The notes below the pieces were generated by a model, which was not told where the DNA came from, did no database searches, and was given only the letters and a program-made list of their open reading frames with translations. Shown here in pieces: positions 1 to 32,247 of a DNA stretch of 64,000 nucleotides. Position 1 is the first letter of the stretch, and every line of letters begins with the position of its first letter. The stretch is from assembly GCA_963806565.1 (NCBI GenBank), contig CAWDYE010000006.1, positions 17,618 to 81,617 of the forward strand. The letters run 5' to 3'. The position numbers were made by a program, and so were the translations under genes. Source of the stretch: an uncultured Acidobacteriaceae bacterium. Its GTDB lineage: Bacteria > Acidobacteriota > Terriglobia > Terriglobales > Acidobacteriaceae.

Positions 1-413
1 ACGTCTCGGCTGTAGTAGTCCACGACCTGCAACAGCAGCGCCCGGTCGTCCGCCTCCCGCGCAACCGGCGGCGGCAGCTTCGGCACCGTGCTCTGCTTCA
101 CCGGCTGGACCGGATCGGCGGCTAAGGGAAGATAGTCCGCTCTGAGCAGCTCGACCGCATGGCGGAAGCTGATGCCGTTGGCCTTCATTACCCAGTCGAT
201 CACCGTTCCGCCTTCATTGCACGCGCCCAGGCAGTGCCAGAGATTCTTCGCCGGAGTGATAACCAGCGACGGGTTCCGGTCGTCGTGGAACGGGCAGAGG
301 CCCAGCAAGTCGGCACCGTGCCGGTGCAACTTGATGCCCCGCGCCTCGGCCAACCGCTGCACGGAGACCTCCCGTTTCAGCCGTTCGACCTCGGATTCTG
401 GGATTCGCGCCAT
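1..413 (-). CDS. CHC2 zinc-finger/Toprim primase, N-terminal part (runs off the left edge)
   Basis: Reverse strand from ATG at 413 reads MARIPESEVERLKREVSVQRLAEARGIKLHRHGADLLGLCPFHDDRNPSL, nearly identical to 9299..12235. Confidence 0.9.
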   Translation of the reverse strand, partial: MARIPESEVERLKREVSVQRLAEARGIKLHRHGADLLGLCPFHDDRNPSLVITPAKNLWHCLGACNEGGTVIDWVMKANGISFRHAVELLRADYLPLAADPVQPVKQSTVPKLPPPVAREADDRALLLQVVDYYSRD

Positions 414-535
414 TTCGACCGCCTTCCTGAAAAACCTGTCAAGAGGAAAATGAACTTTTTAACGCCTGCAAAAATACTGTATCATAGCTTACGCGGTCAA
501 GCCGTATTCCCGGTAAGCAATAGACTGACATTGCC

Positions 536-925
536 ATGCCAAGAAAACCAACACGACAACTTCCCCCGCTCGACTACGGAAACGAAACCGTAGGCCAGCG
601 CCTTGCTCGGCTGCGCAAGGAACGCGGTTACACCCAAGTCGATCTCGCCAAAAAGATCGGGATCATTCAGACGCTCATCTCCGATTACGAACTGGACAAG
701 CTGCGCCTGTCGGCTGAGATGGCCGTGCGGTATTCCATGGCTCTGGACATCACCGTCGATGACTTGCTGGCCCCCAAGACGGCAGCTAATCGAAAAAATG
801 GCAAGCAGCCAAGCCTTAAGCTCGTGCGCCGCATGGAAGAGATTGAGAAGCTGCCGCCACGTCAACAGACACTCGTATTGAGCGCACTCGATTCCATGCT
901 GCGCGGGGCGGCGGTCGCGCGATGA
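536..925 (+). CDS. XRE-family HTH transcriptional regulator
   Basis: RLARLRKERGYTQVDLAKKIGIIQTLISDYE HTH pattern; divergent from the primase, as in the other units. Confidence 0.9.
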   Translation: MPRKPTRQLPPLDYGNETVGQRLARLRKERGYTQVDLAKKIGIIQTLISDYELDKLRLSAEMAVRYSMALDITVDDLLAPKTAANRKNGKQPSLKLVRRMEEIEKLPPRQQTLVLSALDSMLRGAAVAR

Positions 926-956
926 GTGGCCGGAGAGTGCAGGTTTCCGTGGAAAC

Positions 957-1103
957 ATGAAAAGAAGACATTCTTTTCATAGCTGAAAAACATCCGTAGC
1001 GGAGGCATCAGTCAAGGCCGCGAAGCGCCGCCGCAGCGGGCGGAGCGAAGCGGAGAGCCTTTACGGATGCCGGAGCGGAGGATATAGCCGCGTCAGCGGC
1101 TAA
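957..1103. other. Conserved structured non-coding element, copy 1
   Basis: ATGAAAAGAA-GACA-TTCTTTTCAT palindrome (957-980), CATCCGTA..TACGGATG inverted repeat, TAGCCGC-GTCA-GCGGCTA hairpin (1085-1102); homologous copies at 12780 and 24772. Confidence 0.75.
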
Positions 1104-3874
1104 AGACTGTATCCCTGATCGAACTCATGCGCGTGAGCGGGCACCGGCTCGATCTGCCGCACCGTGTCCGGCTGGGTAGGTATCTGCTGCTGCATCCCCT
1201 CTGGCTGGATGGCCGAGGTATGCGATACGTCCCGGCTCAACGCATGGCCCAGCGTCCCGGCGTCGTTGGTGTACATCTGCACATCGAACTGCGCCCGCGA
1301 TACCGACACATAAGCCATGCGGCTGTTGAGTAACTGGCTGTGCGCCTGCTCGGAGTCCACATGGACGAGCACACGGTCGGCGGTCTGGCCCTGGCTGCTG
1401 TGACTCGTCACCGCATAGCCGTAATCAAGATGCGGATGCTGCCTGACATTGAACTCGACCTCGCGGCCTGAGTCCATCTTCAGTTTCAGATTGCCGTCGC
1501 TGTCGATCTTTTCGACCGTCGCCAACTCGCGGCTGGCGAGTTTCTGCGCATGATACGGGGCCGTCAGTTGTACGCGGTCGCCCTCTGAGAAGCGATGCTC
1601 CGCCTCGCGGTAGACCGTCACGCCCTGCTGCCGCCGTGGATCGTAGCTCACTCGCTCGCCGCTCTTCCGCTCCACCGTGACCGTGTTTGCGGCCTGGTCC
1701 ACGTGCGCAACCCGCGCGTACTCTCCGGCCTCGAAGCCGTGCGCCTTGCTGCTCTTCGCATAACGCACGATGTCGCCCTGCTCGTAGTTCTGCGCCCATT
1801 GCCTATCTGCGCCGGTCAACTCCTGCCGCGCATTCAACACCCGCACCGTGTGCTCAACGCCCGCGACCCGGCCCGCGTCCTGCATCGCACGATGGATGTG
1901 CTGGTTGATCTCGCGGCGGGATTCATTGTCGGGCGAGACAACAAGCGTATTCTCCGGCTGGCGCACGTACTCGCGGGCTATCTCGCGGATGCGCTCGTTG
2001 CGGTTCACGATCTCATGCACCCGGCCCTGGCTGTCGAGATTGGCGATTGCTTCTTTGACTTCGCCGCGCGCAAGCTGCTCCACGGCTACTTTCAACGCCG
2101 GGTCTTTCTGCCGGATAATCTCGTCAAGCCGCGCCGTGCGCATCCCGGCCTCTTGCAACTGCGCATAAGGTCGGCCAGCTTCGACCGCCTCATGCTGCCG
2201 CACGTCGCCAACGAACAGCACACGATCATTTTCTTTTAGCCGCTCTACGAACGTGTGCATCTGCTTGGTGCTCGCCATGCTCGATTCATCGACCACATAG
2301 AGCCGCTTTTGTCCGTCGTCCGCGCGGTCGCCGCGCGTAAGATGCCGTTGCAGCGTCTCCGTCTCCATGCCCGACTCGCCCAGCTTTTTCGCCGCGCCGG
2401 ACGTGGGCGCAAGCCCCTTGACCTCATAGCCCGCGCTGACAGCGGCCTCCCGGATGGCGGCTAAAGAAGTAGTCTTTCCGCCTCCGGCCACGCCTTCAAG
2501 AGCCATCATCCGGTCGCGGTTTTCGAGCACGTCTTCGACCGCCCGCCGCTGGCTCACGCTCAGATGCGGATGGTTCGCCTCGACCTGCTGCCGGACCTGG
2601 TCATCGGCCAACACTTCGCGGTTGCCCTGGCCAGCGCGCATCCGCTCGATGATCTCGCGCTCGTAACCCTGCATCTCGCCCGTAGTGAACGCGCGGCCCG
2701 CAAGCCCCGGCCGGCGCTCAACCTCGATCAGCTCACGCGCGGCGACGCGCCGCTCGAACTCCGCCCGCACCTCCGGCAACCGCGCCGCGCCCATCGAGTG
2801 CTTCAACGCATCGCGCATCAGCGTCCGTTCATCGACCACGGCCTCGCGCTCCGTGCCGCGCTCCCGCGCATAACTCACAGCGGTCTGCGCCACGCGCTGC
2901 GACTCTTCTGGCTGAAGCTCAACGCCTGGTCGCCGCTGCGCTTCCTCGATCACGCGCTGCGGCTGATGGCCGTATTCTGCGGCCATTGCCCGATGCTGCG
3001 CTTGTACCTGCTCCGGCGTTAAATCGAGCTTCGCCTCGCGCGTCTTGTGCGCCGCGATCTGCGCCGCCTCCGGCCCGGAGCGGCCCTGCTCCGCCAAGTT
3101 TTCCGTGATTTGTTGACGCCGCGGACTCGACGCCTCCAAGTATTCCCGCGTGTAACCTTTGATCTCCGGCTGTCCATGCTCGCCGCGCTCGATCTCGTAA
3201 CCCAACTGCTGCAACCGCGCCGACAACTCCGAACGGTAAACCGCCGTTGCGTACTGCTGCGTCTTGTAAAGTTCCTGCGGTTGAAGTGCTCGCGTGGTCC
3301 CGTCGGCGGTCTCGGCGATATTGAAAATCACCGTGTGCGTGTGCAACTGCGGCGCGGCGTATCCATCGACCGGACGGCTGCTGTCGTGCTCGAACTTCGC
3401 CACCACCCACGCGCCCGTCGTCTCTGCCGGTGCGTTGCCGCCGATGCGCGCCTGCGCGTACTTCTCCATCTCATTGAGCGCAACGCGCACGCTCTCCCGA
3501 TGCGCTTCTTTCACGCGGTCGTCGCCGCCAACCAACGCCGTCAGCGATACAGATTTCGGCGCGCTGAACGTCGCATCCCACCCCGCCCGGTGCTCCATCG
3601 TGCGCATTGTCTGGCCCTGCTCGTTCACGTACTCCCGCGCCGTTTGATGCCTTACAAGCTGCTCGCCGGTTGCCGGATGCTGGCCCTCGCTCAAGCGCGC
3701 GAACTGCTCCTCATACACTTCGCCAGCAAGTCCGTAACGCTCGGCAAGCTGGCCTTGCCACTCGCCGCGCACATGGTCGCCCTCGGTGTAGTAGTTGTCC
3801 CGCGCGTTGGCGAACTCTTCTTTGTGGTACTCTCGCGCCTGGCTCGCGCTGATCGGTTTCGACATTGTGATCAT
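1100..3874 (-). CDS. MobF (TrwC-like) relaxase-helicase
   Basis: N-terminal NYY, DATFSAPKSVS, HDSSR..PQLHTH 3H motif; helicase Walker A GVAGGGKTT and VVDESS. Confidence 0.95.
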   Translation of the reverse strand: MITMSKPISASQAREYHKEEFANARDNYYTEGDHVRGEWQGQLAERYGLAGEVYEEQFARLSEGQHPATGEQLVRHQTAREYVNEQGQTMRTMEHRAGWDATFSAPKSVSLTALVGGDDRVKEAHRESVRVALNEMEKYAQARIGGNAPAETTGAWVVAKFEHDSSRPVDGYAAPQLHTHTVIFNIAETADGTTRALQPQELYKTQQYATAVYRSELSARLQQLGYEIERGEHGQPEIKGYTREYLEASSPRRQQITENLAEQGRSGPEAAQIAAHKTREAKLDLTPEQVQAQHRAMAAEYGHQPQRVIEEAQRRPGVELQPEESQRVAQTAVSYARERGTEREAVVDERTLMRDALKHSMGAARLPEVRAEFERRVAARELIEVERRPGLAGRAFTTGEMQGYEREIIERMRAGQGNREVLADDQVRQQVEANHPHLSVSQRRAVEDVLENRDRMMALEGVAGGGKTTSLAAIREAAVSAGYEVKGLAPTSGAAKKLGESGMETETLQRHLTRGDRADDGQKRLYVVDESSMASTKQMHTFVERLKENDRVLFVGDVRQHEAVEAGRPYAQLQEAGMRTARLDEIIRQKDPALKVAVEQLARGEVKEAIANLDSQGRVHEIVNRNERIREIAREYVRQPENTLVVSPDNESRREINQHIHRAMQDAGRVAGVEHTVRVLNARQELTGADRQWAQNYEQGDIVRYAKSSKAHGFEAGEYARVAHVDQAANTVTVERKSGERVSYDPRRQQGVTVYREAEHRFSEGDRVQLTAPYHAQKLASRELATVEKIDSDGNLKLKMDSGREVEFNVRQHPHLDYGYAVTSHSSQGQTADRVLVHVDSEQAHSQLLNSRMAYVSVSRAQFDVQMYTNDAGTLGHALSRDVSHTSAIQPEGMQQQIPTQPDTVRQIEPVPAHAHEFDQGYSL

Positions 3875-3880
3875 GGTTGT

Positions 3881-4573
3881 TTACTCGAAACGGGGACGCG
3901 GTTTTTTCGCCGCTGCGGGACGCGCCTCGGACGGTTTTGCCGCTACAACCGGCGGCGGAACTGGCGCCGGATTCGGCGGTTTTACAGCGGGCGCAGCGGC
4001 CTTTGCCTGAGCCGCCGCGCGCCTCCTGCGCTCGATAAAATCCATCAGCTTTTGACCCTGCTTTTCGTAGGAGAACTTCGGCCAACGGTCCTTCGGAACG
4101 GCCACCGGCAACAGCACAGCCAGCAGCGCCAACGCACAGAAAAACGGCTTCCGGGCCGACTCATAAAGATCGTCGTGGTAGATCCACTGGCGCATAAAAT
4201 CATGCAGCTTGCGGTCGTTGTACTGATGCGTCTGCCACTCCAGACGCACGAACCCCGCGCGGCTGCCCTCCGCCGTCAACTGGTACATCGGCTCGCCATT
4301 TGGCCCCGCCGCCGCCTCGATCTCATCGCCCGTAACCAACAGCGCCTTCTTCTTCGCCGTCACCCCTTCAAGCAGCCGATAGCTCGTAAGGGACTCCTCC
4401 GAGAGACTGCCCCACACTCCGCTCTCCAGATAAGCCCACAGGTCAACTCGCTCCGCCGCGTTCCACTCGTTCCGGTAGCTCTGAACATACAGCACACAGA
4501 AGAAAACGCCCGCCGCGATCAGCGTCCAGCGCGTCCACTTCCAGTACCGGCGCGGCCCATACCAGTCACTCAT
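3881..4573 (-). CDS. Membrane protein in the trwB position; resembles a coupling-protein N-terminus without the NTPase domain
   Basis: Two hydrophobic segments and a Pro/Ala-rich tail; lies between the RHH gene and the relaxase; no Walker A motif. Confidence 0.6.
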   Translation of the reverse strand: MSDWYGPRRYWKWTRWTLIAAGVFFCVLYVQSYRNEWNAAERVDLWAYLESGVWGSLSEESLTSYRLLEGVTAKKKALLVTGDEIEAAAGPNGEPMYQLTAEGSRAGFVRLEWQTHQYNDRKLHDFMRQWIYHDDLYESARKPFFCALALLAVLLPVAVPKDRWPKFSYEKQGQKLMDFIERRRRAAAQAKAAAPAVKPPNPAPVPPPVVAAKPSEARPAAAKKPRPRFE

Positions 4574-4941
4574 CGCGCCGCCTTTTTCTGCGCCGCCAAC
4601 CGCTCCCGCGCGCGCTGCATTTTGGTCGCATCCACCCGCGCGATCTCCGCCCGTACCTCTGCCTCGCCCGGAACAGCATGATCGGGAAGCGGGCGAAGAT
4701 TCAAAAACAACGCCCGCAACGCAAGAACCTCCGACAGCAACACTTCGCCCAAAAGATCGTCCGCCGTGTTGCTGACATCCGTGTCACTCCCGCCGCCTGG
4801 ACGGCCAGTCCCCAGCAACTTCGCCCGCATCCACTCCGAGAGCGTCAGATTCTCCGCCCGCGCCCGCGCCTCCAACGTCGCATACTCCGCGTCGCTGACC
4901 TTCGTGCCTACCGATTTTGTCCGCAGAGATGCCTTCACCAT
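4570..4941 (-). CDS. Ribbon-helix-helix relaxosome accessory protein (TrwA/MobC-like)
   Basis: RTKSVGTKVSDAEYATLEARA..LTLSEWMR RHH-like pattern; first gene of the mob module; overlaps the next start. Confidence 0.75.
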   Translation of the reverse strand: MVKASLRTKSVGTKVSDAEYATLEARARAENLTLSEWMRAKLLGTGRPGGGSDTDVSNTADDLLGEVLLSEVLALRALFLNLRPLPDHAVPGEAEVRAEIARVDATKMQRARERLAAQKKAAR

Positions 4942-5510: not shown

Positions 5511-6128
5511 TCATTCGGAGTTTGCGACATGAATCCAGATGATCTTACCTTCGCTAAAACCTATCCGGGCGGATCGGCTATCGTCCTTGCAACCTTCCTT
5601 TTCATTGAGCAGACAACTGTACAAATAGCTCTGGTCTCCAACCGAAATCTGGCTTGTACCTGCCACCTTAATCCCCGCGATCACGCCTAGATCGTTCTTT
5701 TTGTCCAGTTTCTTGGTAAAAACAGGTTCACGATAGGCGCGGACGAGGGCTTCTTTGCTGCTACCGATGCCGATCCCTTCTGGCGTTTTCCAAATTTCTG
5801 GATCGATTGTTGTTGTCGTTGTCGGAAGCCCCTTACAGTTAGGGAAGGAACTGAGCAAAACATCCGCCACGCGACCAGATCGGTCATCCATAGGCCGCAC
5901 GTACAAGTACAGACCGTGTTTCGGATCAGAAAAGCAGTAGGTGTCTCTACCAGCAGGCTTCGCGCCAAAATGCTCCAGAAATGATTTCATGGACGTATCG
6001 CGGTCAAGGCTATAAAAGCCGAGTGAACGCGGTCCGGCATAATGCCCCCAAGGACTCGGATTCTGCGCCGCCAGTGTTGAACCCAGGACCAGGACCAGCA
6101 AAGCTCGAAATTTGATGATTTGTCTCAT
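5511..6128 (-). CDS. Putative exported immunity protein for the upstream Rhs tip
   Basis: Overlaps the toxin stop by 4 nt; signal peptide MRQIIKFRALLVLVLGSTLAAQ; identical copy at 17339..17956. Confidence 0.75.
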   Translation of the reverse strand: MRQIIKFRALLVLVLGSTLAAQNPSPWGHYAGPRSLGFYSLDRDTSMKSFLEHFGAKPAGRDTYCFSDPKHGLYLYVRPMDDRSGRVADVLLSSFPNCKGLPTTTTTIDPEIWKTPEGIGIGSSKEALVRAYREPVFTKKLDKKNDLGVIAGIKVAGTSQISVGDQSYLYSCLLNEKEGCKDDSRSARIGFSEGKIIWIHVANSE

Positions 6129-7102
6129 TCTGGGTTGTTATTCCTCGAGTATGGAATGATCCCGGATTCGGCAGGGTTATGCTGAGAATTCGTAATTGTT
6201 TGACCAAGAGAGATTACGTCAGCGTTCTGGCCTCGTGTGCAACCTGTGGTAGGCTTCCAACCTTGCTGGTCTGCCATTGGATCAGGTAAACCGGTCCCCC
6301 CACCATGAATTGCCCTTCCTCGCGAATCGCCGGTGTCGATAAATGCTCCTGCCGGACCATACGCATCTTGGCCTGCATGTCGATCACTCGTACCCTTGAT
6401 ATTCGGAGTCGAATACGGATTGTCGGCACCCGGCTCAGACTTCTTGTGATCAATATCGTTTTTGGTCTCAATTGTCTTTGTCGTGGTCTTCCCATAAACG
6501 TCCGTTGACTTGAATGTGGTCGTGTGCCCACTCATGTCGGTATGCAAGCTGGACGAGGGAACCTTTGGTGTGAAGTGCGTGTCCGGTGGTGGAGGCGGAA
6601 GCGGCGGCGGCGCTCCGAAGCAAACCGTGATACCGAGAACTGTGTGGCACCCGTGTCCATCTGGATCAATTCGCGTCATCGGGTTGTTCATGACGTAGGC
6701 GTAGAGATTCAAGCTCTGCGGATTGTCGAGCTTCGCGTATGGTACGGGTTCCTGTTTCGCCGACCAATCGGGCGACATAAACCGCCCCATTGAGCTTGCG
6801 TAGTACCTAGCCCCGAAGTAGTCGTTGCCTGATTCGGCATCTCGTTCTTTGCCGGTATAGCGTGATCTGATGCGCTCCAGATGCAACGCTGCTTGCAAGC
6901 CTAATGCAGTCGTGGAGTTGCAGACTTCATGCACCTGATGCAGTGCAGGATTTTTACTCGAAAACCCCAGACGCGGTTTTTCTCTTAGCTGCGGCATTGC
7001 GGCTAGTGGCGGTTGCGACAACACGGGGATGGAAGCAAGTTGCATCTGCATCCGATTGTACGACTTGAGGGGGCGAGTTGGGCAGCGGATTGTGCGCGGC
7101 AT
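6125..7102 (-). CDS. Orphan/mini Rhs protein: leader, Rhs core end and L,D-transpeptidase-like toxin tip (start uncertain)
   Basis: YTGKERDAESGNDYFGARYY..RFMSPD..NNP..IDPDG core motif; tip has IHGG-x16-TTGCTRGQNAD. Confidence 0.85.
   Translation of the reverse strand: MPRTIRCPTRPLKSYNRMQMQLASIPVLSQPPLAAMPQLREKPRLGFSSKNPALHQVHEVCNSTTALGLQAALHLERIRSRYTGKERDAESGNDYFGARYYASSMGRFMSPDWSAKQEPVPYAKLDNPQSLNLYAYVMNNPMTRIDPDGHGCHTVLGITVCFGAPPPLPPPPPDTHFTPKVPSSSLHTDMSGHTTTFKSTDVYGKTTTKTIETKNDIDHKKSEPGADNPYSTPNIKGTSDRHAGQDAYGPAGAFIDTGDSRGRAIHGGGTGLPDPMADQQGWKPTTGCTRGQNADVISLGQTITNSQHNPAESGIIPYSRNNNPE
6681..6856 (-). repeat. 176-bp Rhs core-end direct repeat, copy 1
   Basis: Encodes TGKERD..MNNP; copies at 18509-18684 and 26667-26842. 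Confidence 0.9.
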
Positions 7103-7246: not shown

Positions 7247-7660
7247 CTATAGCTGGATGATCTGGAGGCCGGGGATCATCTGGAAGTGGCGGAGATTGAC
7301 AGTCGCTACGGCGTAGCCATGCTCCAGCGCAGTGACTCCGATCAGCAGGTCGGCGAAGGGGATGGTCACGCCCTGGGCGCGCTGTTCGCCGTCGATCTTC
7401 CCGGCCAGCATCGCCGTTGCTTTGGCGTAGGGAACCACGTCCATGTCGGCCAGAAGATCGCCGATAAAACGCTCGTGGTTCTGGCGCTGAACGGGGTTCG
7501 ACGCGCGATAGATTGAGTGCACAAGCTCGGTGAGTCCCACGGCGGAGAGCGCGACCCGTTGGTCGCCCGCCGTCGAGACGATGCGCCGGAGCAGTTGCGG
7601 CACGGTTTCGCGTTGGCGCTCGGCGGCGATTACTACGCTGGAGTCCAGTATCAGGCCCAT
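7247..7660 (-). CDS. vapC: VapC PIN-domain toxin
   Basis: LILDSSVVI..E, DLLIGVTAL, VATVNLRHF PIN motifs. Confidence 0.9.
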   Translation of the reverse strand: MGLILDSSVVIAAERQRETVPQLLRRIVSTAGDQRVALSAVGLTELVHSIYRASNPVQRQNHERFIGDLLADMDVVPYAKATAMLAGKIDGEQRAQGVTIPFADLLIGVTALEHGYAVATVNLRHFQMIPGLQIIQL

Positions 7661-7664
7661 TCGA

Positions 7665-7952
7665 TCAGTCCCATGCCGGAGGATTCAACGGCTCAGGATG
7701 GCTGTTGACGACCGCTTCCAAGTCGCGGGCGAAGCTGCCATCGAGCAGCGCCGAAGAACCGCGCGTTTCGGCGGCTGCGATGACTTCAGAGAGCAGACGA
7801 CCGGGGCCAGCGGGAACGGCGGGCCGCACGACGGCCACGGCGCGAGTTTCGAACTCGATGACGATCTCCGCGCCCAAGCGGACGTGCGCCATCAGTCCGG
7901 CGAAGTCGCGGGCGGCTTCAGCTTCCGAGATGTGGATGGTTGCCATACTCAT
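7665..7952 (-). CDS. Phd/YefM-like antitoxin
   Basis: ISEAEAARDFAGLMAHV..GAEIVI pattern; directly upstream of vapC. Confidence 0.8.
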   Translation of the reverse strand: MSMATIHISEAEAARDFAGLMAHVRLGAEIVIEFETRAVAVVRPAVPAGPGRLLSEVIAAAETRGSSALLDGSFARDLEAVVNSHPEPLNPPAWD

Positions 7953-24525: not shown

Positions 24526-24556
24526 CGCTCGATCAGACCTCGAACCCATCACGAAC

Positions 24557-24579
24557 AAGGCCGGACAGCGTCCGGCCTT
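24557..24579 (+). terminator. GC-rich hairpin after the TA pair (no clear U-tract)
   Basis: AAGGCCGGAC-AGC-GTCCGGCCTT. Confidence 0.35.
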
Positions 24580-24771
24580 CGTTCGTTCCGCGTTCGATCT
24601 TCGGGCCGCTGTCGGCCTCGCTAAGCCGTCAGGCTTAGGGATGGTGTCTTGGCTCCAACACATCGCCATGAGCGCGACGGATGCCCGAGAGCACCCCGGC
24701 GCTGCACGCTTCGCTGCTGGACCTCACCGCGCCGCCGTGGGCCGGGAGTCGTCGCCCTGGTCATGTGGAAC

Positions 24772-24915
24772 ATGAGAAAAAGACTTTTTTCTCATTGCTG
24801 AAAAACACCCGCAGCGAGGATGGCAGTCAAGGGCGCGCGGTCTGTGCGCGTCGCGCTGGCGCGAGCGAAGCCCCTTGACGGCCACCGCAGCGGAGGGTAC
24901 GCGGCGTCAGCCGCG
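24772..24915. other. Conserved structured non-coding element, copy 3 (diverged)
   Basis: ATGAGAAAAA-GACT-TTTTTCTCAT; GTCAAGGG..CCCTTGAC; CGCGGC-GTCA-GCCGCG. Confidence 0.7.
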
Positions 24916-25150
24916 CCGGGAGGCCCTTTCAGCCTCGATCCTTTGATCTCAACACGTTAACGCCGCAGCAACCCAAGGTTACTCCCGCAGGAACCGCGAA
25001 CCGCCCATTTTCTCTTTAGCCGTTTTGTTTTCAACATGTTTACGCACGTAAACACGTAAACGCCTGTGTTTGCGCGGTCGCCGCGTGCATCGCATTGGCG
25101 CTGCTCACGTTAACGCACAGTTACCGCGCGGTATCCCTGCAGCAACCCGC

Positions 25151-25283
25151 TGGGGGTGACGTGTCCCCCTAATTCCGATGCCGTAGGCAGCGCGCCCTTC
25201 ACCGGATCGCGCCACTGCTGTCTACAGGCGTAAACACGGCAAGCCGCCCCCGAGGACGGCTTGCGGTTGGCTGCAAGGACGGC
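25151..25283. other. oriT-like motif plus post-immunity hairpin, copy 3
   Basis: GGGGTGACGTGTCCCCCTAATTCCGATGC and GCAAGCCG..CGGCTTGC..GACGGC abutting the immunity stop; homologous to 5365-5498. Confidence 0.65.
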
Positions 25284-26021
25284 TTACTGCTGCTTCGGCG
25301 GATCGGCGTGGCCAGACTCGTGAAGGAGCGTTTCAGCGGAGAGCCTGCTCATAACGTCCACTGTGGGCGGCTTGGTGATTTCAACCGCGCTTGAAAGGAC
25401 AACCGCCTGTATTTCGTATAGGGATTTCAGAGTTGATCCGACTTCGATTCGTTCCATGCCCGTGAACGCATCGTGCGGGATTTGCTTGCGCGCTACCAGT
25501 TCCATGAGTGAAGCGGATGCTGGCAGTACGCCAACGCGCACCTCGATCCGTTTGATTGACGTGGCCGGAACATCTCTTGTCCCAGGAGCACTGGAGAAGG
25601 GCGGCTCCGTGGTTCGGAGCGGCCAGGATAGCTGAACGACCTCAACGTGAGATGCGCCAGGTTCAAGCTGCACTAGGTGAACGCTCGTGCCATCGACGAA
25701 GGGATGGAACGGGTTCGGCGGGTACAACTGGAAGCTACATATCAGCGTTGATGCGTCGGTGCTGTCCGTGTCGATGTAAGGCCCTTTAGACCGATCAACT
25801 CGACGCGGATCAGTCGCCACATAAGCGGGAACGTCGCCGGAGTTCTTAACTAAAATCTCCAGCACCATCAGGCCTTCAGATTTGCTCTTCAGCTTCGCTT
25901 TGACTTCGACCATCGGAACCCTTCCCTGAGGCGTTTGCGCAGGGACAAGGCTCGCCGGTACGAGCGTGCAGACCACTGCGCTCATGATTGCTGCTAACAC
26001 GCTACAAGACTTGTTCATCAA
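25284..26021 (-). CDS. Putative exported immunity/partner protein of the main Rhs tip
   Basis: Directly downstream of the tip; N-terminal hydrophobic signal peptide. Confidence 0.7.
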   Translation of the reverse strand: MMNKSCSVLAAIMSAVVCTLVPASLVPAQTPQGRVPMVEVKAKLKSKSEGLMVLEILVKNSGDVPAYVATDPRRVDRSKGPYIDTDSTDASTLICSFQLYPPNPFHPFVDGTSVHLVQLEPGASHVEVVQLSWPLRTTEPPFSSAPGTRDVPATSIKRIEVRVGVLPASASLMELVARKQIPHDAFTGMERIEVGSTLKSLYEIQAVVLSSAVEITKPPTVDVMSRLSAETLLHESGHADPPKQQ

Positions 26022-26050: not shown

Positions 26051-29000
26051 TTAGTTTTGAGGAACTGGCACCCAGTTGTCCGGCCCGGTATACGTTGCTC
26101 TTACAGGCGCACCTAGCTGCCTCTCCAGTTGATTCTCGGTGATGTCGCCGTGCATCACGAACGGCGAGAAGCCGGTCGTTCTAAATTCCTCGCGGTTCAC
26201 CGTTTCACTGAACGTAGTGCCTCCATTGCTGAAGATGTGATCAGCTGGAGTCATGTCCTGGAGACCCCTGTTTTCGTGGTCCTGATGGATCAGTTCATGC
26301 CCTAGGACTGCCGTACCGCTGGCATGAGCCTCGGTAAGATTTCCATCGGCCCCGCGCGTCATGATGTTTGCCCCTGCGGGATCGTACTTCACGTCGCCAT
26401 GAAGTTGTGTCCCGCCATTCGGATTTCCGGGATCAGCCGTGATGGTAGTGAGATGAGAGTCGTTGACGATTCTCGATACCAACGATTGCCCAGCTCCGTT
26501 CCCGTCAAGATGATTCACGATCCTTTGCAGCAGCGATCCTTTGCTCACCGTTCCATCTGCGGCAACCTTGGTTCCGGGAGCCAACTTATTCAAATCTGCC
26601 GCGCATGTCGCCGCATTTGCCCCGGCACAGTTGGCAGTGTGACCATCTGCATCAACTCCGCCCAGTGGGTTGTTCATCAGGTAGGCATATAGGTTTAAGC
26701 TTTGCGGGTTCCCGAGCTTTGCATATGGAACAGGTACGATCTTCGCCGACCAATCGGGCGATAAGAAACGCCCCATTGAGCTTGCGTAGTACCTAGCCCC
26801 GAAGTAGTCGTTACCTGATTCGGTATCGCGTTCTTTGCCGGTGTAGTGGTGTTCGGTGGCGTCGAGGCGCACGAGGAATAGCCGGGCAGGGCAACGGTGG
26901 TCAGCCCGTCGCCGTAAGCCAGGCTGGTGTAGCCGGTGGCGCAGCCGATGCCGTTGCCGTTCGAGTTAGTCCCGACCTCGACGCGCTTCGTGCCCAGCCA
27001 GTCGCCCAGATAAAAGTAAGTGCCGGTGTCGTGATAAGTGGCTTGAATCTTGCCGCCGGAGAAGGCGTTGGTGTGCTGCCAGGTGCTGGCCGCTCCGCTG
27101 ACCGCGTACTCGGTGACCTGCTCGCCGCCGGGGCCGAGAACATAACTCGCCGTGGGCGTGAAGTGATTGTAGGCGCTGTCGGCGGGGTTGAAGTCGCAAG
27201 TAAAGTTCGTCAGCGAGCCTTTCGCGACACGGATTCCCGCCGCGTCGTAAACATACCCCGTATACGACGGCCCGGCGGTCATGGCCGCGCAGAGCCTTCC
27301 CTCGGCGTCGTAGAGATACGAGTTGAGTAAGTCTTGCGTCACATCACCCGCCGCGTCATAGTAGAGGCCCGCGCCGCCGTTCACGCTGGCCACCTGGTTC
27401 GTAGCCGCAGTATAACTCGCCGTGCTGGACGATGGCATGGGCGCCGCGACCGTGCCGCCGACAACCTCACTCTTGCGGTTGCCGAAGGGATCGTAGCTCC
27501 AGCTCATCTGCGCGCCCGCGTAGTAGCCCGCCGTCGATGTGCCGGTCAGCAGCCGGTTGAGGTTGTCGTAGGTGTAGCTCCACGTGCCGGTCACGGTATC
27601 CGCTACGCTGAGCAGGTTGCCGTTGGGCGCGTAGCCGCCCTGATCGGGGATGGCGTAGCTGTAGACCGCGTTGCCGATGGTCTCGCCGCCGGACATCGAG
27701 GTGGCGGTCGCGGTGAACGACAGGGGGCCCGAATAGTTGTTGGGTCCGCTCAAGGAGAAGTACTCCGGATTGGTGTCGGCTGCCGTCGCCGTCACCGACC
27801 AGTCAACCGCCGGGCCGCCGTTCAGGCTGGTCAGCGTGACCGTGCCGCCCGAGGCGCAGGCGCTGACGAAGCCGGTGGCCGTGGCGATCTGGGCGGCGGT
27901 AGGGCAACTGGAGCCGGGGATTCCCTCCAGGCCGTTGATGGAGGCAGCCAGGGTGGTGGCCAGGCTGGAGGGCGTGCTGCCCTGGACCCAGTTCACCTGC
28001 GCCGTCAGGTCGCTGACGGTGGCTGTGATGGCGCCCGTGTCGTAGTAGGTGCCCGCGTTCCAGCCGCCGGTGAATGTGCCGGCGCCGTAATAGGTGCCCG
28101 ACGCTATATAGCCGCCGGTAAATGTGCCGGAGGTGCTTATGACCACAAAATCCGGCAAGTATGAACTTGAAGTGGAGTAGGTGTAGTTGCTGCTCAGGCC
28201 TGTGGTTTTCGCGGTGATGGTCAAAGAGCTGCCGCTGGCGGTGGCTGTCACGGGAGAACGCGACACGTTGAAACCTGTCGCGAGGGCTGTGGCAAGTGTT
28301 GCACCGGTCGAGCCGCCTCCGTAATTTGCCGTTGCCGTGAAGCCCTGTACGGTTACTGACACCGCACCCGTAGCGGGGACTTGGGTGCAGGTGGTGATGG
28401 GAACATAGTACGTACACTGCGAGGGCGAGGGCTCGCAGGTGTTGACCGTAGTGCAGGAGTTAGTGAGTTGTTCGGAACCAGAGACCGTCAGAACCGCGCT
28501 GCCGGGGGTGTTGGTCTTGGTCACCGAGCCTTCGGTTCCGCTGATGGTGATGGAGCCGGTGCTGTCAGCGCCTGTGGTGATGATGTTGCCGGGGCCATCT
28601 TGTTCAAGGTCAATCCGGCCGCGGTTGTCGTAGGCGCGCTGTAGAGAGGCCGTGGTTGTTCCGGATTGAGAGTTTACGCCCAGCGATGCGTTTTGGAGAC
28701 CCATGGGGCCATATTCCGGCAGAGAGGGGTTGGCCGGGGGCGCGAAGAGCGTGGCCGGGTGTGTAGTGGAATCGGACCAACTGCTGCCCACGGTGACCAG
28801 CCGCTCGGCGTTGTCGTAATTGTAAGCGAAGGTGACCGGTCCGCCGGAAGACGCGCTGGATGTTGGCGCATTCGACGGGAAGGTCGCGGAGACCGGCTTG
28901 CCGCCCTGGTCGTAGGCGTAGGAGAGATTGTAAGTGGAGCTGCCGCAGTTGGCCGGGGTGCATTGCTGCTCGGCCAGGAGGCGGCCCATCGGATCGTAAG

Positions 29001-32000
29001 CGTAGGTGCTGGTGGTGGCCAGGGTCGTCGAGCCGGTTTGAACTGTCGCCTGCGTGAGTTCGCCGATGTCGTTCGCGCTTCCCGGAATGGACGAATTATC
29101 GTAGGTGAAAGATACCGGCGGGGTCGAGTCCGAATACGTCTTGCCCAGCAAGCGATTCAACTGGTCGTAAGAGTAGTTGATGGAAATGCCGCGATTGTCG
29201 GTCTTCCGGAGAAGGTTGCTGTTGTTGTCGTAGGCGTAGATGATGGTGCCGGTTTCCGGATTATAAGCCGCCAAAAGCCGCGACATAGCATCGTAGGTGA
29301 AGGATCTCACGTGATCGCCTGACGATGGGCATGCCCCACCGCATTGATCAACCCGCAGCAGATTGCCCAGCGTGTCATAGGCATAGTCGGTTTCCAGGGT
29401 TGGCGCTGCCCCGCTGTTCGTGGTTCCGGGCGGCTCCAGCACCTTCGTCAGCCAGCTTTCGGCATTGTAGGTTCGAGTCCACAGATTATAACTTTCGTCG
29501 TAAAAATTGACCACATTGCCGTTGAAGGTCCAGGATTGCGCCGAGCTGTCAGGATTTGTTTTGGTGGTCAGCCTGCCGATCGCATCGTATGCATACTGTG
29601 TCCACCCATCCGTCGCCTGGGAGGAGTTGCAGTGCGGATTGCTGACCGCGCTCACCCTGCTCAGCAGGTCGTAGGTTGTATTCACGGTGAGGGAGCCGCA
29701 GGCTGTGTCAATGGGAGTTGTCGCGGTGCTCACGCTGATTTTTCTGCCCAGACCGTCGAGATTGGTTGTCGTAACTTTATTGGGAGATGGACTTTCGACA
29801 ACCGTAGTGACGATCTGATTGGGAGATGGGTAAACGTTGGTTGTCGTGCCTCCATCCGGCCTTGTCGTAACCAGTGGTCGCATCAGAGGGTCGTATGTAT
29901 AGGAGGTCATATTGCCGGTTACTGAACCGTTGTAATCCTCCTGCCAGTTAAGCAGTCCGGTGTTCACATCGTAGTTGGTTGTAATCACATGGGCCACGCC
30001 GTTGCTGGTGGGTGGCATGGTTGTCGTCGCCAGGAATGCATTCTGCGCCCCATAAGCATATTTTGTCGAGTATCCTCTGCCATCGATCGTAGTGACTCTA
30101 TTTCCGAGATCGTTATAATAAGCAGATGTCGTAATCGGCGCTGAACTCGCGCCGGTATACTTGGTCACGCTGGTGGGCAAACCGCGTAGCATGTAAGATG
30201 CGTTGAAGTTCGTGTAATCGTGCTGCGTGGTCCCGGAGGTTGACGCGAGGCCAAACTGATCATAGGCTGTCGTGGTCTGCGCCACCAGCGCAGATGCGGC
30301 GTTGTAGACCGAGACCTGGCTCACACGGTCCGTGATATTGGCCGCCGCATAAGCGGGGTTCTGGTTGTGCAGATAGCTATACTGCGTGTTGCTCAACATC
30401 GCTCCATGCGCGCCGGAGCCAGCTGTGCCGTAGTCGTAAACAGTCTTCGAAACGACGTTCCCTCTTGACGTTGTTGAATCGGCGGATGTACCACAGCCGT
30501 TTGCACTTGTGAGCATGTTATCGTAGGCCGTGTCCGTCTCCGTGGTTACTCCGGAGGGGTTCCAAGTGAGGGTGTTACTGGTCGGAAGATAGGTTCCTGT
30601 TCCCATAAAACCACCCATGTATGTATAGCCGATTGCTTTGGTTGCAATGGGGCTGTTGGCGGATTGCGACCCGTTGTAACTGACCTCTTGAGTCACGACC
30701 GGACTCGGGCCATAACAACCTGAGTTAGCATTCCCGACGCCGCCAGAGAAGTCAAAGGTATAAACCGTGTCATTCAGGTACGGATCGGTCACAGTCCTAT
30801 TAACGCTGCTCGAATCACCGGCTGAGTTCGGATACTGATACTGCCAGGTGCTGGACTGCCCGTTCGCGGTCACAGTCCTCGACAGGACTCGCCGGCCAAC
30901 AATCCCGTCGTGGATTCCCTGCAACTCGCTCCACATGTAACTGATGACGCCGCCGGTTGGAAGCGTGATCTGGCTGATTTCTCCCAGAGTGCATCCCAAG
31001 CTATTCGCTAGAGGAGTGCATCCTGAGTCACCATCCGTTTTGTATTGAATCGTATAGGTGTCATTGTTTTGCAGCACGATCGAAGTCGGCAGATTGACTA
31101 CCACTAGCATGGCCGGTGTTCCAATCGCCGGGCCACATACGGGTGAATTTCCTCCGCAGAGTGATGGAAGATCCAGCGTATAAGGCGAGTAAATGATCGT
31201 GATGGTTTGTAATGTGTTGTTCTGGTCGAGATACTGGATCGTCTGCGGCTCGTTGGCGCCCATTTCCCCAACCAACATAGGTATACCGAATCCCGAACTG
31301 CCGGACTCCATGATTGTTCTGCCGGCAGTATCCGTAAAGCAGTATGCGCTTTGGCATTGCGTATACAGTTGACTGCCTGGCTGCGCTCCCGCGCTTATGA
31401 TGTTGCCATCGCTATCCTCGACTTTAATGACTTGCTGGTACGTCAATATAGCCGGACTATAGACCGGATTAGGTGGCAGTCCTGCGCTCCCGTTGTAGCC
31501 GATATAAGCTCCGATACTTCCACTGCCGCCTCCGGAGGTTAGCGTATACTGTCTGCCATGCTTGTCGGTAAGGCTCACCACATTGCTAGTGTTCGGAAAG
31601 ACTGTCAGGTTCGGATTGAGTATCAGGTTGTATCCAGTTGCATCCGCTGAGTACGAGTTGGCAAGATACAATGCATCTCCCGGGGTACACGTATCTTGCT
31701 GATACATCGAATCGATCTGATAGCCGTTTACTGGAAAACTGTGTCCTGTGCCGTCGGGATCTGTGAAGGCCATGTAGTCTATGTGGGTAAGAGTTCCACT
31801 CCACGATATAACAGGCCATTCGCCTGTCGGGATAGAATAAAGCCCACATACCCAATTCTCAGTGTGGTATCCAACCTTGAGAACGCCCTGCAATGGATCG
31901 CTGACTTGTGCGAAGCCGTTTCTGCCAATTGATATTTGCTGCCACTGCTGGAGCGCCCCCGAGGTGCCCCAATTAACCTGCGTCTCATTGAACAACTGGT

Positions 32001-32247
32001 TGTCGTAGACGAAGTGGATGTCCGTATCCATGCCAATGCCGGGCAGATGAAGCAGCGGAATGTCCACGTGCAAGTTTCCATTCTGCAACTGCACCGAATC
32101 GATGGAGCCGCCGCTGAAGACCCCGGTCGGCGGCAATCCGACATTATTGACATTGGGCGTGTAAGCCGTTTGCGCGGCCGACGGCCATGCAAAGCTGAGA
32201 ACCATCAACGCAACGCCTATTCCAGCAAGCAGACTCTTCGTCTTCAT
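26051..32247 (-). CDS. Large signal-peptide Rhs/YD-repeat toxin with an HExxH metallopeptidase tip; frameshifted near 26868
   Basis: MKTKSLLAGIGVALMVLSFAWPSAAQ signal with GGAG RBS; many YxYD..GRL repeats; core end DATEHHYTGKERD and tip GHELIH are in the frame of ORF 26051..26872. Confidence 0.85.
26667..26842 (-). repeat. 176-bp Rhs core-end direct repeat, copy 3
   Basis: Within the full-length rhs gene. Confidence 0.9.

What the first reader, a model, noticed from the sequence alone, without database searches (positions are those of the whole stretch)
1..32247. Tandem array of primase-recombinase elements bounded by Rhs core-end repeats: candidate mobile toxin-tip swapping system
Seen: on the minus strand a full-length rhs gene is followed by tip-A/Im-A, origin-like elements, XRE, primase and recombinase, then leader+core end+tip-B/Im-B and so on, for at least three units. 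Units are bounded by gap-free 176-bp direct repeats encoding TGKERD..MNNP (6681, 18509, 26667), giving units of 11,828 and 8,158 bp. Known: Rhs tips are exchanged by recombination with orphan tip-immunity modules. Inference: each unit is an excisable, replicating element whose attachment site is the rhs core end, so integration gives the chromosomal Rhs a new tip and pushes the old tip downstream. I know of no formal description of such an element class, but could not search.
Basis: partly seen in the sequence, partly recalled or inferred. Interest (0 to 1): 0.92.

Follow-up and report, generated by a model that had tools for sequence, protein, structure and literature searches.

The report
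Mobile elements that swap Rhs toxin tips
Three small plasmid-like mobile elements sit head to tail inside the conserved end of an Rhs toxin gene of a soil Acidobacterium. Each brought its own toxin tip and immunity gene and pushed the older tip downstream, which gives a concrete vehicle for a long-proposed but unexplained way that these bacterial weapons diversify.

Summary
On the minus strand a 1,863-aa rhs gene is followed by three units joined by gap-free core-end repeats, spaced 11,828 and 8,158 bp.

Units 2 and 3 carry a TrwC relaxase and a NikA-like gene, so they look like integrative mobilizable elements. Unit 3 ends outside the window at a different type of Rhs core end. The rhs gene and several unit 2 and 3 genes are frameshifted. 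The locus lies beside tRNA-Ser and a P4-type integrase.

Comparative evidence supports the interpretation and sharpens it:
- The XRE, primase-helicase, XerC-like recombinase and leader backbone recurs in many Acidobacteriaceae, and in Xenorhabdus and Lonsdalea, next to toxin ends.
- Four independent comparisons place the exchange point within or just after ACCGGCAAAGAACG (TGKER codons), at the 5' edge of the repeat. One of them narrows it to ACCGGCAAAGA. This fits site-specific rather than homologous recombination.
- Recombinase lineages track the junction type.
- A closed 7.7-kb circular metagenome contig and two small circular plasmids carry the predicted free form.

No reads could be examined, so excision in this genome is unproven. 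I found no published description in the library searched. [quoted passage not shown] 2009.

The parts
34574..34665 (-). tRNA-Ser (cga), flanking the locus
   Evidence: ARAGORN
33173..34390 (-). P4-type tyrosine integrase next to the tRNA. The rhs locus may lie within a tRNA-Ser island.
   Evidence: Arm-DNA-bind_3, Phage_int_M and Phage_integrase. No second copy of the tRNA end was found.
26695..32286 (-). Full-length rhs shell (1,863-aa ORF). The frame breaks about 20 nt upstream of the core-end repeat and continues in ORF 26051-26872.
   Evidence: RHS_repeat; translations
26829..26842 (-). att core copy 1 (attL): ACCGGCAAAGAACG at the shell to core-end boundary
26639..26842 (-). Core-end repeat copy 1 (TGKERD..DADGH), assigned to unit 1
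   Evidence: (87% to the reference copy)
26051..26668 (-). Tip A, a Peptidase_M91-like toxin domain
   Evidence: 33 bits against a cut-off of 25
25284..26021 (-). Candidate immunity gene A (245 aa). Assigned by position only.
   Evidence: no family match
24990..25300 (-). Conserved non-coding block downstream of the immunity gene (oriT-like). Present in unit 1 although it has no relaxase.
   Evidence: alignment of the three units
24755..24925 (-). Conserved non-coding block with the palindrome ATGAGAAAAA-n4-TTTTTCTCAT. Candidate operator or origin.
   Evidence: the palindrome stays perfect in unit 3 through paired changes
24037..24669 (-). 210-aa ORF of unknown function. It recurs in related elements.
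23595..23984 (+). XRE-family HTH regulator, divergent from the primase (unit 1)
   Evidence: HTH_3, E 4e-17
20337..23477 (-). Unit 1 replicase: DnaG-type primase (zinc ribbon and Toprim) fused to a P-loop, MCM-like helicase domain. Intact.
   Evidence: model and Foldseek
19282..20340 (-). Unit 1 XerC-like tyrosine recombinase (352 aa). Intact.
   Evidence: Phage_integrase, E 7e-39; NF002331, 446 bits against a cut-off of 371
18685..18876 (-). Unit 1 leader: conserved element end that supplies a start codon in frame with the displaced core end
18671..18684 (-). att core copy 2 (junction of unit 1 and unit 2)
17953..18684 (-). Core end and tip B (weak YkuD-like match)
   Evidence: tip C, identical in protein, gives TIGR03696 and YkuD E 0.01, below cut-off
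17339..17956 (-). Candidate immunity gene B (205 aa)
   Evidence: assigned by position
16394..16771 (-). Unit 2 NikA-like relaxase accessory protein
   Evidence: PF21983
15704..16664 (-). Unit 2 homologue of the 230-aa ORF, frameshifted
12923..15697 (-). Unit 2 TrwC (MOBF) relaxase-helicase, 924 aa, intact
   Evidence: 93% identical to the unit 3 copy, which matches TrwC at E 3e-89
12378..12752 (+). Unit 2 XRE-family regulator
9299..12235 (-). Unit 2 primase-helicase (978 aa), intact
8002..9084 (-). Unit 2 recombinase, split by one frameshift
7247..7952 (-). Unit 2 antitoxin (95 aa) and PIN toxin (137 aa)
   Evidence: PIN, E 1e-10. The same pair is in related elements.
6857..7102 (-). Unit 2 leader
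6843..6856 (-). att core copy 3 (junction of unit 2 and unit 3)
6125..6856 (-). Core end and tip C (same protein as tip B)
5511..6128 (-). Candidate immunity gene C, identical to B
1100..4941 (-). Unit 3 mobilization module: NikA-like gene (4570-4941), 230-aa ORF (3881-4573), TrwC relaxase (1100-3874)
3..958 (-). Unit 3 153-aa ORF (497-958) and the start of its primase (3-413). The primase runs off the window and is broken in several places further on.

Best explanation
The array was built by successive site-specific integrations of small plasmid-like elements into the conserved end of an rhs gene.

Free form. Each element is a circle that carries these parts:
- an XRE regulator;
- a replicase, which is a DnaG-type primase fused to an MCM-like helicase;
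- a XerC-like tyrosine recombinase;
- often a toxin-antitoxin pair;
- in units 2 and 3, a MOBF relaxase with a NikA-like protein and an oriT-like site;
- an attP made of a conserved leader arm, a short core (ACCGGCAAAGA, the T-G-K-E codons), the element's own copy of the Rhs core end, a toxin tip and an immunity gene.

Integration. The recombinase exchanges strands within that core between attP and the identical sequence in the chromosomal rhs gene. The rhs shell then reads in frame into the element's core end and tip, followed by the matching immunity gene. The previous core end, tip and immunity gene end up behind the element, fused to the leader's start codon.

Array growth. Repeated integration stacks elements, with the newest next to rhs: unit 1 is intact, unit 2 is partly broken, unit 3 is the most broken. 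Relaxase-bearing units can be mobilized by a helper conjugation system. Unit 1 keeps the oriT-like block and may be mobilized in trans.

What is shown by sequence comparison:
- the anatomy;
- the recurring association of this backbone with toxin ends;
- breakpoints confined to the core;
- recombinase lineages that track junction type;
- a circular contig of a related element in the predicted free form, and small circular plasmids of distant relatives that carry the backbone with Rhs core-end, tip and immunity cargo.

What is inferred:
- that the recombinase is the enzyme doing the exchange;
- that the replicase supports autonomous replication;
- that transfer happens;
- that any unit in this genome is still active.
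For: Anatomy.

Association with toxin ends. The recombinase has many homologues at about 72-98% identity in Acidobacteriaceae metagenomes. In public contigs the module XRE, primase, recombinase (with or without antitoxin and PIN), leader, core end, tip and small ORF recurs, often in tandem. Of 79 recombinase copies with at least 1.5 kb of downstream sequence, 47 have an Rhs core end on the same strand within 1.8 kb. Most of the others show the same leader fused to another conserved toxin end.

Crossover mapping:
- Unit 1's leader is 100% identical over about 220 nt to that of a relative in another MAG, up to ...ACCGGCAAAGAACG. Identity then drops to about 65% because the resident core ends differ.
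- In L004 and L006 the same rhs shell carries different tips. The sequences are identical up to CTTCACCGGCAAAGA. The tip attached to rhs in L006 is the displaced orphan in L004, starting from the same point.
- In L008 against L011 and L012, and in L011 against L012, differences begin 0-14 nt after the 14-mer.
- attP shows a dif-like dyad, TCACGTWGTA-CCGGCA-AAGAACGNGA.

Specificity. Junction classes cluster on the recombinase tree: 22 changes against a shuffled mean of 49.8, with 0 of 200 shuffles as low. Unit 3's recombinase groups with the class that shares its odd junction, at support 99.

Free forms:
- L072 is a k127 contig whose 127-nt terminal overlap lies in backbone sequence. It closes to a 7,738-bp circle holding XRE, primase, recombinase, antitoxin, PIN, a leader-core-end-tip ORF and a lipoprotein-like immunity candidate.
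- L027 has a terminal overlap at the att region and is 99.96% identical to a copy integrated in L026, where a 28-bp repeat flanks it.
- The 11,289-bp Lonsdalea plasmid and the 8,758-bp Shigella plasmid carry XerC, the primase and Rhs core-end, tip and immunity cargo.

Replicase. There is a Walker A motif. The model of the C-terminal half (pLDDT 63) best matches MCM helicases at E 4e-9.

Decay gradient across the three units.
Against: - There is no direct evidence of excision, circles or alternative junctions in this genome.
- The rhs frame is broken just upstream of the core. The unit 2 and unit 3 recombinases are each split by a frameshift, so at most unit 1 is autonomous. Assembly error cannot be excluded.
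- Unit 3 is not bounded on its far side by the same repeat. Explaining it needs a chimeric history.
- The shell-side arm of the chromosomal site does not resemble the leader arm.
- The 200-bp repeats would also allow RecA-dependent recombination.
- No empty site was found.
- One related contig (L103) shows an element next to an oppositely oriented rhs.
- In an even sample of the phylum the recombinase family is rare: 1 of 300 other genomes at E 1e-100 or better.
- Circular contigs can also arise from perfect tandem copies.
Confidence: 0.7

Rival explanations
1. Integration happens by homologous recombination. The elements are small plasmids that happen to carry an Rhs core-end fragment. They enter rhs by a RecA-dependent single crossover anywhere in the roughly 200-bp homology, as in the Jackson 2009 model. 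The XerC-like recombinase only resolves plasmid multimers.
For: - The repeats are 176-204 bp at 87-96% identity, long enough for RecA.
- Xer-like recombinases commonly resolve plasmid dimers (general knowledge).
- Mosaic patches inside the core ends, and a 100% identical cassette between units 2 and 3, show that homologous exchange or conversion does occur here.
Against: - All four informative comparisons place the breakpoint within or at most about 14 nt after the 14-mer at the extreme 5' edge of the homology. There is no homology on the other side of that edge to support strand exchange.
- Some subfamilies share only about 28-50 nt with their targets.
- Recombinase clades track the junction class.
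Confidence: 0.15
2. The array is a local rearrangement inside a tRNA-Ser genomic island. It arose by tandem duplication and unequal crossing-over of one resident segment, and the units were never independently mobile in this lineage.
For: - tRNA-Ser and a P4-type integrase lie directly upstream of rhs.
- Units 2 and 3 are about 93% identical over about 5.9 kb and share an identical cassette.
- Several backbone genes are broken.
Against: - The three backbones differ strongly. Primases are 75-82% identical at the DNA level, and the unit 3 recombinase belongs to another clade.
- A relative whose recombinase is 100% identical in protein to unit 1's sits in front of a different tip in another MAG.
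- Two further copies lie in a second array on contig C5.
Confidence: 0.1
3. The array is an assembly artefact. Reads from several related free plasmids and from the chromosomal rhs were joined through the shared core-end repeat into a tandem array that does not exist.
For: - The genome is a metagenome-assembled genome in six contigs.
- Contigs C5 and C6 both end inside these repeats or elements.
- Frameshifts cluster in the repeated parts.
Against: - Each junction has its own leader and its own core-end variant.
- Equivalent tandem arrays occur in many independent short-read and long-read assemblies.
- The repeats are shorter than typical long reads.
Confidence: 0.05

Closest known systems
Rhs C-terminal displacement and orphan tip-immunity arrays (Jackson et al. 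2009, PMC2935791; applied to bee-gut Snodgrassella by Steele et al. 2017, PMC5727410)
   Same: - A full-length rhs is followed by core-fragment, tip and immunity modules.
- New tips displace old ones downstream.
- A circular intermediate carrying a core fragment and a tip was postulated.
   Different: - That model invokes homologous recombination and left the origin of the circle open. [quoted passage not shown]
- Here the circle is a defined element with its own recombinase, replicase and, in some units, relaxase. The exchange point is a short fixed core.
- Steele et al. only noted integrase-like genes near Rhs loci.
Integrative mobilizable elements (tyrosine recombinase plus relaxase and oriT, no mating apparatus) and their tandem accretion at one att site
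   Same: - Units 2 and 3 have a recombinase, a MOBF relaxase, a NikA-like accessory gene and an oriT-like block.
- They have no type IV secretion genes.
- They are flanked by direct repeats.
- Several elements are stacked at one site.
   Different: - The target is not a tRNA or housekeeping gene end that is merely restored. It is the pre-toxin end of a polymorphic toxin gene.
- Integration replaces the gene's functional C-terminus with cargo from the element.
- The elements also carry a primase and MCM-like replicase, as plasmids or satellites do.
rAID-1, the recombinase-associated acquired interbacterial defence clusters of Bacteroidales (Ross et al. 2019, bioRxiv 10.1101/471110), and polyimmunity loci next to XerC/D genes (Zhang et al. 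2012, PMC3482391)
   Same: A Xer-like tyrosine recombinase is associated with accumulating arrays of toxin-related cassettes, and repeats hint at active capture.
   Different: - rAID-1 has one recombinase and an array of orphan immunity genes with integron-like intergenic repeats. No replicase, relaxase or in-frame fusion to a delivery gene is described.
- Here each unit has its own backbone and arms the toxin gene as well as adding immunity.
Integrons (IntI, attI, attC cassettes)
   Same: - A tyrosine recombinase adds cassettes at a fixed site next to an expression platform, so the newest cassette is the one expressed.
- A 1,271-bp backbone-less tip and immunity insertion between two att cores in L004 looks cassette-like.
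   Different: - The recombinase scores far below the integron-integrase models: 106 bits against a cut-off of 265.
- The sites are coding sequence, not attC hairpins.
- Most units carry a full mobile backbone.
- Expression is by in-frame protein fusion, not from a promoter.
Shufflons (Rci recombinase swapping PilV C-termini)
   Same: A tyrosine recombinase changes the C-terminal segment of a surface or delivery protein by acting at short conserved sites inside coding sequence.
   Different: Shufflons invert resident segments within one plasmid. Here new segments arrive on a mobile, transferable element by integration.
Xer-exploiting integrative elements (IMEX)
   Same: Xer-family chemistry, and a dif-like layout of the proposed core (two roughly 10-bp arms around a 6-bp centre).
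   Different: The elements encode their own recombinase, and the target is an rhs codon block, not the chromosomal dif site.

Membership tests
Integrative mobilizable element (IME) | Encodes a site-specific recombinase for integration and excision | tested here: met
   Phage_integrase at E 7e-39, and the XerC subfamily model at 446 bits against a cut-off of 371. The gene is intact in unit 1 and split by one frameshift each in units 2 and 3.
Integrative mobilizable element (IME) | Own relaxase and/or oriT but no mating-pair apparatus | tested here: met
   Units 2 and 3 have TrwC (E 3e-89) and a NikA-like gene. A conserved oriT-like block is present in all three units. No type IV secretion genes are in the units. 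Unit 1 has no relaxase.
Integrative mobilizable element (IME) | Bounded by direct repeats that derive from attP x attB recombination | tested here: met
   Three core-end repeats share the 14-mer core. Breakpoints map to it in related loci. Unit 3's far end uses another junction class.
Integrative mobilizable element (IME) | Demonstrated excision to a circle and transfer | not testable with these tools
Indirect support only: a closed circular contig, L072, and small circular plasmids of relatives.
Rhs orphan-tip array formed by C-terminal displacement (Jackson 2009) | A full-length rhs followed by core-fragment, tip and immunity modules of the same core clade | tested here: met
   However, the orphans beyond unit 3 belong to a second core-end type.
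Rhs orphan-tip array formed by C-terminal displacement (Jackson 2009) | Exchange by homologous recombination within the shared core sequence | tested here: not met
   In four comparisons the breakpoints lie in, or within about 14 nt after, the 14-mer at the edge of the homology. The sample is small, so this is an indication rather than proof.
Integron | IntI-type integrase | tested here: not met
   TIGR02249 gives 106.5 bits against a cut-off of 265. NF011946 gives 64.8 bits against 435.
Integron | Promoterless cassettes with attC hairpin sites, captured at attI | tested here: not met
   The junctions are coding sequence with a linear 14-mer core, and most units carry full backbones. One backbone-less cassette was seen in L004.
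rAID-1 (Ross 2019) | A XerD-like recombinase more than 44% identical to the B. fragilis prototype, followed by low-GC orphan immunity genes | not tested
   The prototype sequence was not fetched. The architecture differs: here there is a replicase, a relaxase and toxin tips fused to rhs (for the definition).
Plasmid or satellite primase-helicase replicon | Replicase with a DnaG-type primase and a replicative-type helicase domain | tested here: inconclusive
   The primase domains are clear. The C-terminal half has a Walker A motif, a weak DUF5906 match, and a moderate-confidence model (pLDDT 63) that best matches MCM helicases at E 4e-9 and TM about 0.48. A PDB sequence search gave nothing.

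The most novel reading that the evidence does not exclude
A class of small plasmid-like integrative elements, found in more than one phylum, uses as its attachment site the conserved pre-toxin end of polymorphic toxin genes.

- Backbone: an XRE regulator, a DnaG-primase and MCM-like helicase, a XerC-like recombinase, and often a toxin-antitoxin pair or a relaxase.
- Targets: several positions in the Rhs core end, the end of the PT-HINT domain, and at least one unidentified scaffold.
- Integration replaces the toxin tip in frame.

These elements would be the missing 'circular intermediate' of Rhs C-terminal displacement. Their recombinases may also move backbone-less tip and immunity cassettes in trans, in an integron-like way.
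Probability: 0.5. Interest if true: 0.9.

Novelty: new variant of a known kind. Interest (0 to 1): 0.8.

Why it matters
Rhs and other polymorphic toxins are major weapons in bacterial competition. How new toxin tips arrive and displace old ones has been explained only by a hypothetical circular intermediate and homologous recombination (Jackson 2009).

A dedicated, transferable element would change that picture in three ways:
- It gives that intermediate a physical identity, because its attachment site is the toxin gene's conserved end.
- It explains why arrays are ordered and why displaced tips keep a start codon and their immunity gene.
- It makes the process testable with simple recombination assays.

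It would also be an unusual case of a mobile element that rewrites the C-terminus of a host protein as part of its own spread. The toxin-immunity pair could favour cells that carry the element.

Tried and rejected
- Empty-site search. A pattern joining the two flanks of the L008 element found nothing in the metagenome contigs.
- Orthologous rhs in 60 relatives. None was close enough to compare occupied and empty sites.
- Second copy of the tRNA-Ser end, to delimit an island. None was found.
- L008-L010 as an integration into a non-Rhs secondary site. I first read the 34-bp direct repeat this way. I downgraded it after seeing that the left flank keeps a leader-type arm and follows an older orphan tip. 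It still fits a crossover in that segment but is not independent proof.
- PDB sequence search with the replicase C-terminal half. It returned only chance hits.
- Leader as a conserved protein. Coding constraint is weak: 557 synonymous against 1,011 non-synonymous single-base codon differences, and nearly equal variability at all codon positions. Its conservation may be partly at the DNA level.
- Simple duplication of unit 2 into unit 3. I rejected this because identity ranges from 100% in the cassette to 57-78% in the recombinase, and the recombinases fall in different clades.

Full report
**Setting.** The window is C6:17618-81617 of a 3.33-Mb assembly in six contigs with 59% G+C. Close homologues and the record titles of related loci place it among uncultured Acidobacteriaceae from soil and peat metagenomes.

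**Check of the observation.** The repeat finder returns three gap-free copies of a 204-nt repeat at 6653-6856, 18481-18684 and 26639-26842. Identity to the middle copy is 96% and 87%, and the spacing is 11,828 and 8,158 bp. Translations show that the copies encode the Rhs core end, TGKERD...MNNP...DPDGH. The ORF at 6125-7102 matches the Rhs-associated core model TIGR03696.

**Gene content of the three units** (minus strand).
- Upstream: tRNA-Ser, a P4-type integrase and rhs (1,863 aa).
- Unit 1: tip A (Peptidase_M91), a 245-aa ORF, a conserved non-coding region, a 210-aa ORF, XRE on the opposite strand, a 1,046-aa primase, a 352-aa XerC-like recombinase and the leader.
- Unit 2: core end, tip B, a 205-aa ORF, a NikA-like gene, a 230-aa ORF (frameshifted), a TrwC relaxase, XRE, a primase, a recombinase (frameshifted), an antitoxin and PIN pair, and the leader.
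- Unit 3: core end, tip C, a 205-aa ORF, a NikA-like gene, a 230-aa ORF, a TrwC relaxase, a 153-aa ORF and a primase that runs off the window.

They make units 2 and 3 look like integrative mobilizable elements.

**Beyond the left edge.** The whole contig shows that unit 3 continues for 4.4 kb, with a primase broken in several places and a recombinase with one frameshift. It does not end at a fourth copy of the repeat. Its leader is fused to a second type of Rhs core end (…VVENGVR|KTYRARYYNPQTGRF), and about eight orphan tips of that second type follow. A second array on contig C5 holds two more elements and three orphans with longer shell fragments.

**The backbone is a recurrent element.** The best 120 database homologues of the recombinase listed are about 72-98% identical, mostly from soil and peat metagenomes. 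In contigs that encode them, the module recurs, often several times in tandem. The module is XRE, a primase of about 1,050-1,080 aa, a recombinase of about 352 aa, sometimes an antitoxin and PIN pair, then an ORF of about 300-340 aa and a small ORF.

That ORF starts with a conserved leader (for example MEQASSAFSTGVPVLAAIPQLAGNSRQGF…SSNTLGLS…DAGSRS). It continues in frame into TGKERD…, an Rhs core end and a variable tip.

Across 75 loci from named genomes, I counted 79 recombinase copies with at least 1.5 kb of downstream sequence. Of these, 47 have an Rhs core end on the same strand within 1.8 kb. Some loci are redundant.

Most of the remaining copies show the same leader fused to a different conserved segment:
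- CSGEQYD… or …ARYYNP… in the second core-end type;
- YD-repeat shell sequence;
- …MGRF…;
- the end of a HINT domain (DQNHDYFVGETGFLVHN);
- an unidentified motif, WSGKTASGPAVAANNG or SGTVVAPNN.

Homologues at 45-50% identity in Xenorhabdus form tandem units too. In the one unit examined (L085), a short Rhs-type end (…VHNPVNFVDPFGL) with a tip and an immunity gene follows the recombinase.

**Where the exchange happens.** Homology among the three window repeats begins exactly at ACCGGCAAAGAACG. This 14-mer occurs three times in the window against 0.01 expected. Four comparisons locate breakpoints.
1. L014 is from another MAG. It carries an element whose recombinase is 100% identical in protein to unit 1's and whose DNA is 93.5% identical overall. 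The two leaders are 100% identical over about 220 nt up to …TGTACCGGCAAAGAACG. Identity then falls to about 65%, because different resident core ends follow.
2. L004 and L006 contain the same rhs shell. The sequences are identical up to CTTCACCGGCAAAGA and then carry different core ends and tips. The tip attached to rhs in L006 is the displaced orphan in L004, identical from the same point onward.
3. L008 compared with L011 and L012 has identical leaders, and divergence starts 0-14 nt after the 14-mer.
4. L011 and L012 are identical on both sides and differ at only three positions, all within 9 nt after the 14-mer.

Taken together, the crossover lies in ACCGGCAAAGA. On the element side the sequence forms a dif-like dyad, TCACGTWGTA-CCGGCA-AAGAACGNGA. 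The chromosomal shell side (…GAACACCACTTCA-CCGGCA…) shares only the right arm.

Breakpoints at the very edge of the homology, with unrelated sequence on the other side, are what site-specific recombination predicts. RecA-dependent exchange spread over 200 bp does not predict them. The sample is small.

**Recombinase lineage follows junction type.** On a tree of 92 recombinase sequences, junction classes need 22 changes against a shuffled mean of 49.8, and none of 200 shuffles was as low. Near-identical copies inflate this clustering. Unit 3's recombinase groups, at support 99, with L072, L073 and L066. L072 and L073 share its KTYR/QTDR|ARYYNP junction. Unit 3's nikA is 98% identical to that of L073, whose cassette has the second core-end type.

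So unit 3 is best read as a chimera. It has a recombinase and leader specific for the second core-end type. Its mobilization module is unit 2-like, and its cassette carries the first core-end type.

**Free forms.**
- L072 is a 7,865-bp k127 contig whose first and last 127 nt are identical. The overlap lies in backbone sequence, not at the att site. It closes to a 7,738-bp circle with XRE, primase-helicase, recombinase, antitoxin, PIN, a 266-aa leader, core-end and tip ORF, and a lipoprotein-like small ORF. This is the predicted attP form. A perfect tandem array could give the same contig, but a graph branch at the att site would then be expected.
- L027 is 11,005 bp with a 119-nt overlap that spans the HINT end and the start of the tip. 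It is 99.96% identical to a copy integrated in the 44-kb contig L026, where a 28-bp direct repeat flanks it.
- The 11,289-bp circular plasmid of Lonsdalea populi N-5-1 carries XerC, the primase, XRE, SymE and RelE/DinJ. It also carries two Rhs core-end fragments with nuclease tips and immunity genes.
- The 8,758-bp circular plasmid of a Shigella flexneri wastewater isolate carries the same backbone and two Rhs core-end fragments.

**Replicase.** The N-terminal third is a DnaG-type primase. The C-terminal half has a Walker A motif (SSSAAGKSS) and a weak DUF5906 match. A model built from 18 homologues (pLDDT 63, pTM 0.61) best matches the ATPase and winged-helix parts of MCM helicases, at E 4e-9 and TM about 0.45-0.49. 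A replicative role is plausible but not shown.

**Conserved non-coding blocks.** All three units share two such blocks.
- One lies just after the immunity gene. It has a hairpin and TTAGGGGGACAC, and is oriT-like. It is kept in unit 1, which lacks a relaxase.
- The other has a 10-bp-arm palindrome that stays perfect through paired changes.

**Order and decay.** Unit 1 is intact. Unit 2 has frameshifts in the recombinase and the 230-aa gene. Unit 3 has a frameshifted recombinase and a primase in at least five pieces. This fits the newest element lying next to rhs. The rhs frame itself breaks about 20 nt upstream of the core. Without reads I cannot tell real mutations from assembly errors.

**Literature.** Jackson et al. 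2009 proposed C-terminal displacement through a circular intermediate and homologous recombination. [quoted passage not shown] Steele et al. 2017 noted integrase-like genes near Rhs loci in bee-gut bacteria. Zhang et al. 2012 noted XerC/D genes beside polyimmunity loci. Ross et al. 2019 described recombinase-associated orphan-immunity arrays. Six full-text searches found no description of an element with this backbone and this target. The library lacks most subscription journals, so a prior description cannot be excluded.

**Earlier notes of this scan.** Other agents reported similar elements in other genomes. I treated these as leads only. One of them was later given low odds for its boldest reading, so I keep the cross-phylum claim at 0.5.

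**Verdict.** Activity in this genome is untested.

Noticed in passing
window 5371-6680 and 17199-18508: The tip and immunity cassettes of units 2 and 3 are 100% identical over about 1.3 kb, while the flanks are 85-96% identical. One boundary is at the MNNP codons at the 3' end of the core-end repeat. The other is inside the conserved oriT-like block (…GGGGGACACAT). Eight of the nine differences in the core end cluster in the 53 nt just before the identical tract. Possible causes are nick-initiated gene conversion or relaxase-mediated exchange. Neither was tested.
   Followed up: partly
L004:2902-4173, compared with L006:1436: A 1,271-bp insertion sits between two att cores. It holds only a core end, a tip, an immunity gene and about 15 nt of a leader-type arm. 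It has no backbone. It looks like a non-autonomous cassette moved in trans, or like a precise backbone deletion.
   Followed up: partly
L034, L046-L053, L057-L059, L069, L076 (leader junctions): One subfamily of the element has its leader fused to WSGKTASGPAVAANNG or FGWSEIVSGTVVAPNN, followed by variable domains. The full-length toxin scaffold that ends in this motif was not found in the loci held.
   Followed up: no
L026:916-11775 and L027: A relaxase-bearing relative targets the C-terminal end of a HINT (intein-like) pre-toxin domain instead of Rhs. Its relaxase is 92% and its 153-aa ORF 98% identical to the window's. The integrated copy has a 51-nt in-frame deletion at its left junction relative to the circular-looking contig.
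   Followed up: partly
C6:1-13254 (left of the window) against window 26695-32286: The orphan tips beyond unit 3 have a second type of core end (RGEQ[FY]D…RARYYNPQTGRF). The full-length rhs has the first type. How an array of the second type came to lie behind an rhs of the first type is unexplained. Recombination between related element backbones from two loci is one possibility.
   Followed up: partly
window about 26860-26866: The rhs reading frame shifts about 20 nt upstream of the att core. Compared with the C5 orphan shells there are 5 nt (GCCTC) where they have 3 (TCC). If real, the shell is not fused to tip A at present.
   Followed up: partly
contig C5:1-19000 (L002): A second array in the same genome holds two more primase-recombinase elements and three orphans that carry 560-690 bp of shell sequence. 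One of the two elements starts at the contig edge. Contigs C5 and C6 both break inside these repeats.
   Followed up: partly
window 34709-35941: A 410-aa serpin gene (Pfam Serpin, E 7e-120) lies just beyond the tRNA-Ser. Serpins are uncommon in bacteria.
   Followed up: no
plasmid records: Homologues of the primase and recombinase pair, at 40-59% identity, occur on Ralstonia megaplasmids, on Caballeronia, Janthinobacterium, Paraburkholderia, Pseudomonas, Enterobacter and Providencia plasmids, and on many Leptospira plasmids. A truncated recombinase homologue is on about 138 large Salmonella plasmids. Their cargo was not examined.
   Followed up: no
L103:1704-6849: In one metagenome contig the element lies next to an rhs gene on the opposite strand, with only about 1 kb between them. 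This does not fit the usual layout.
   Followed up: no
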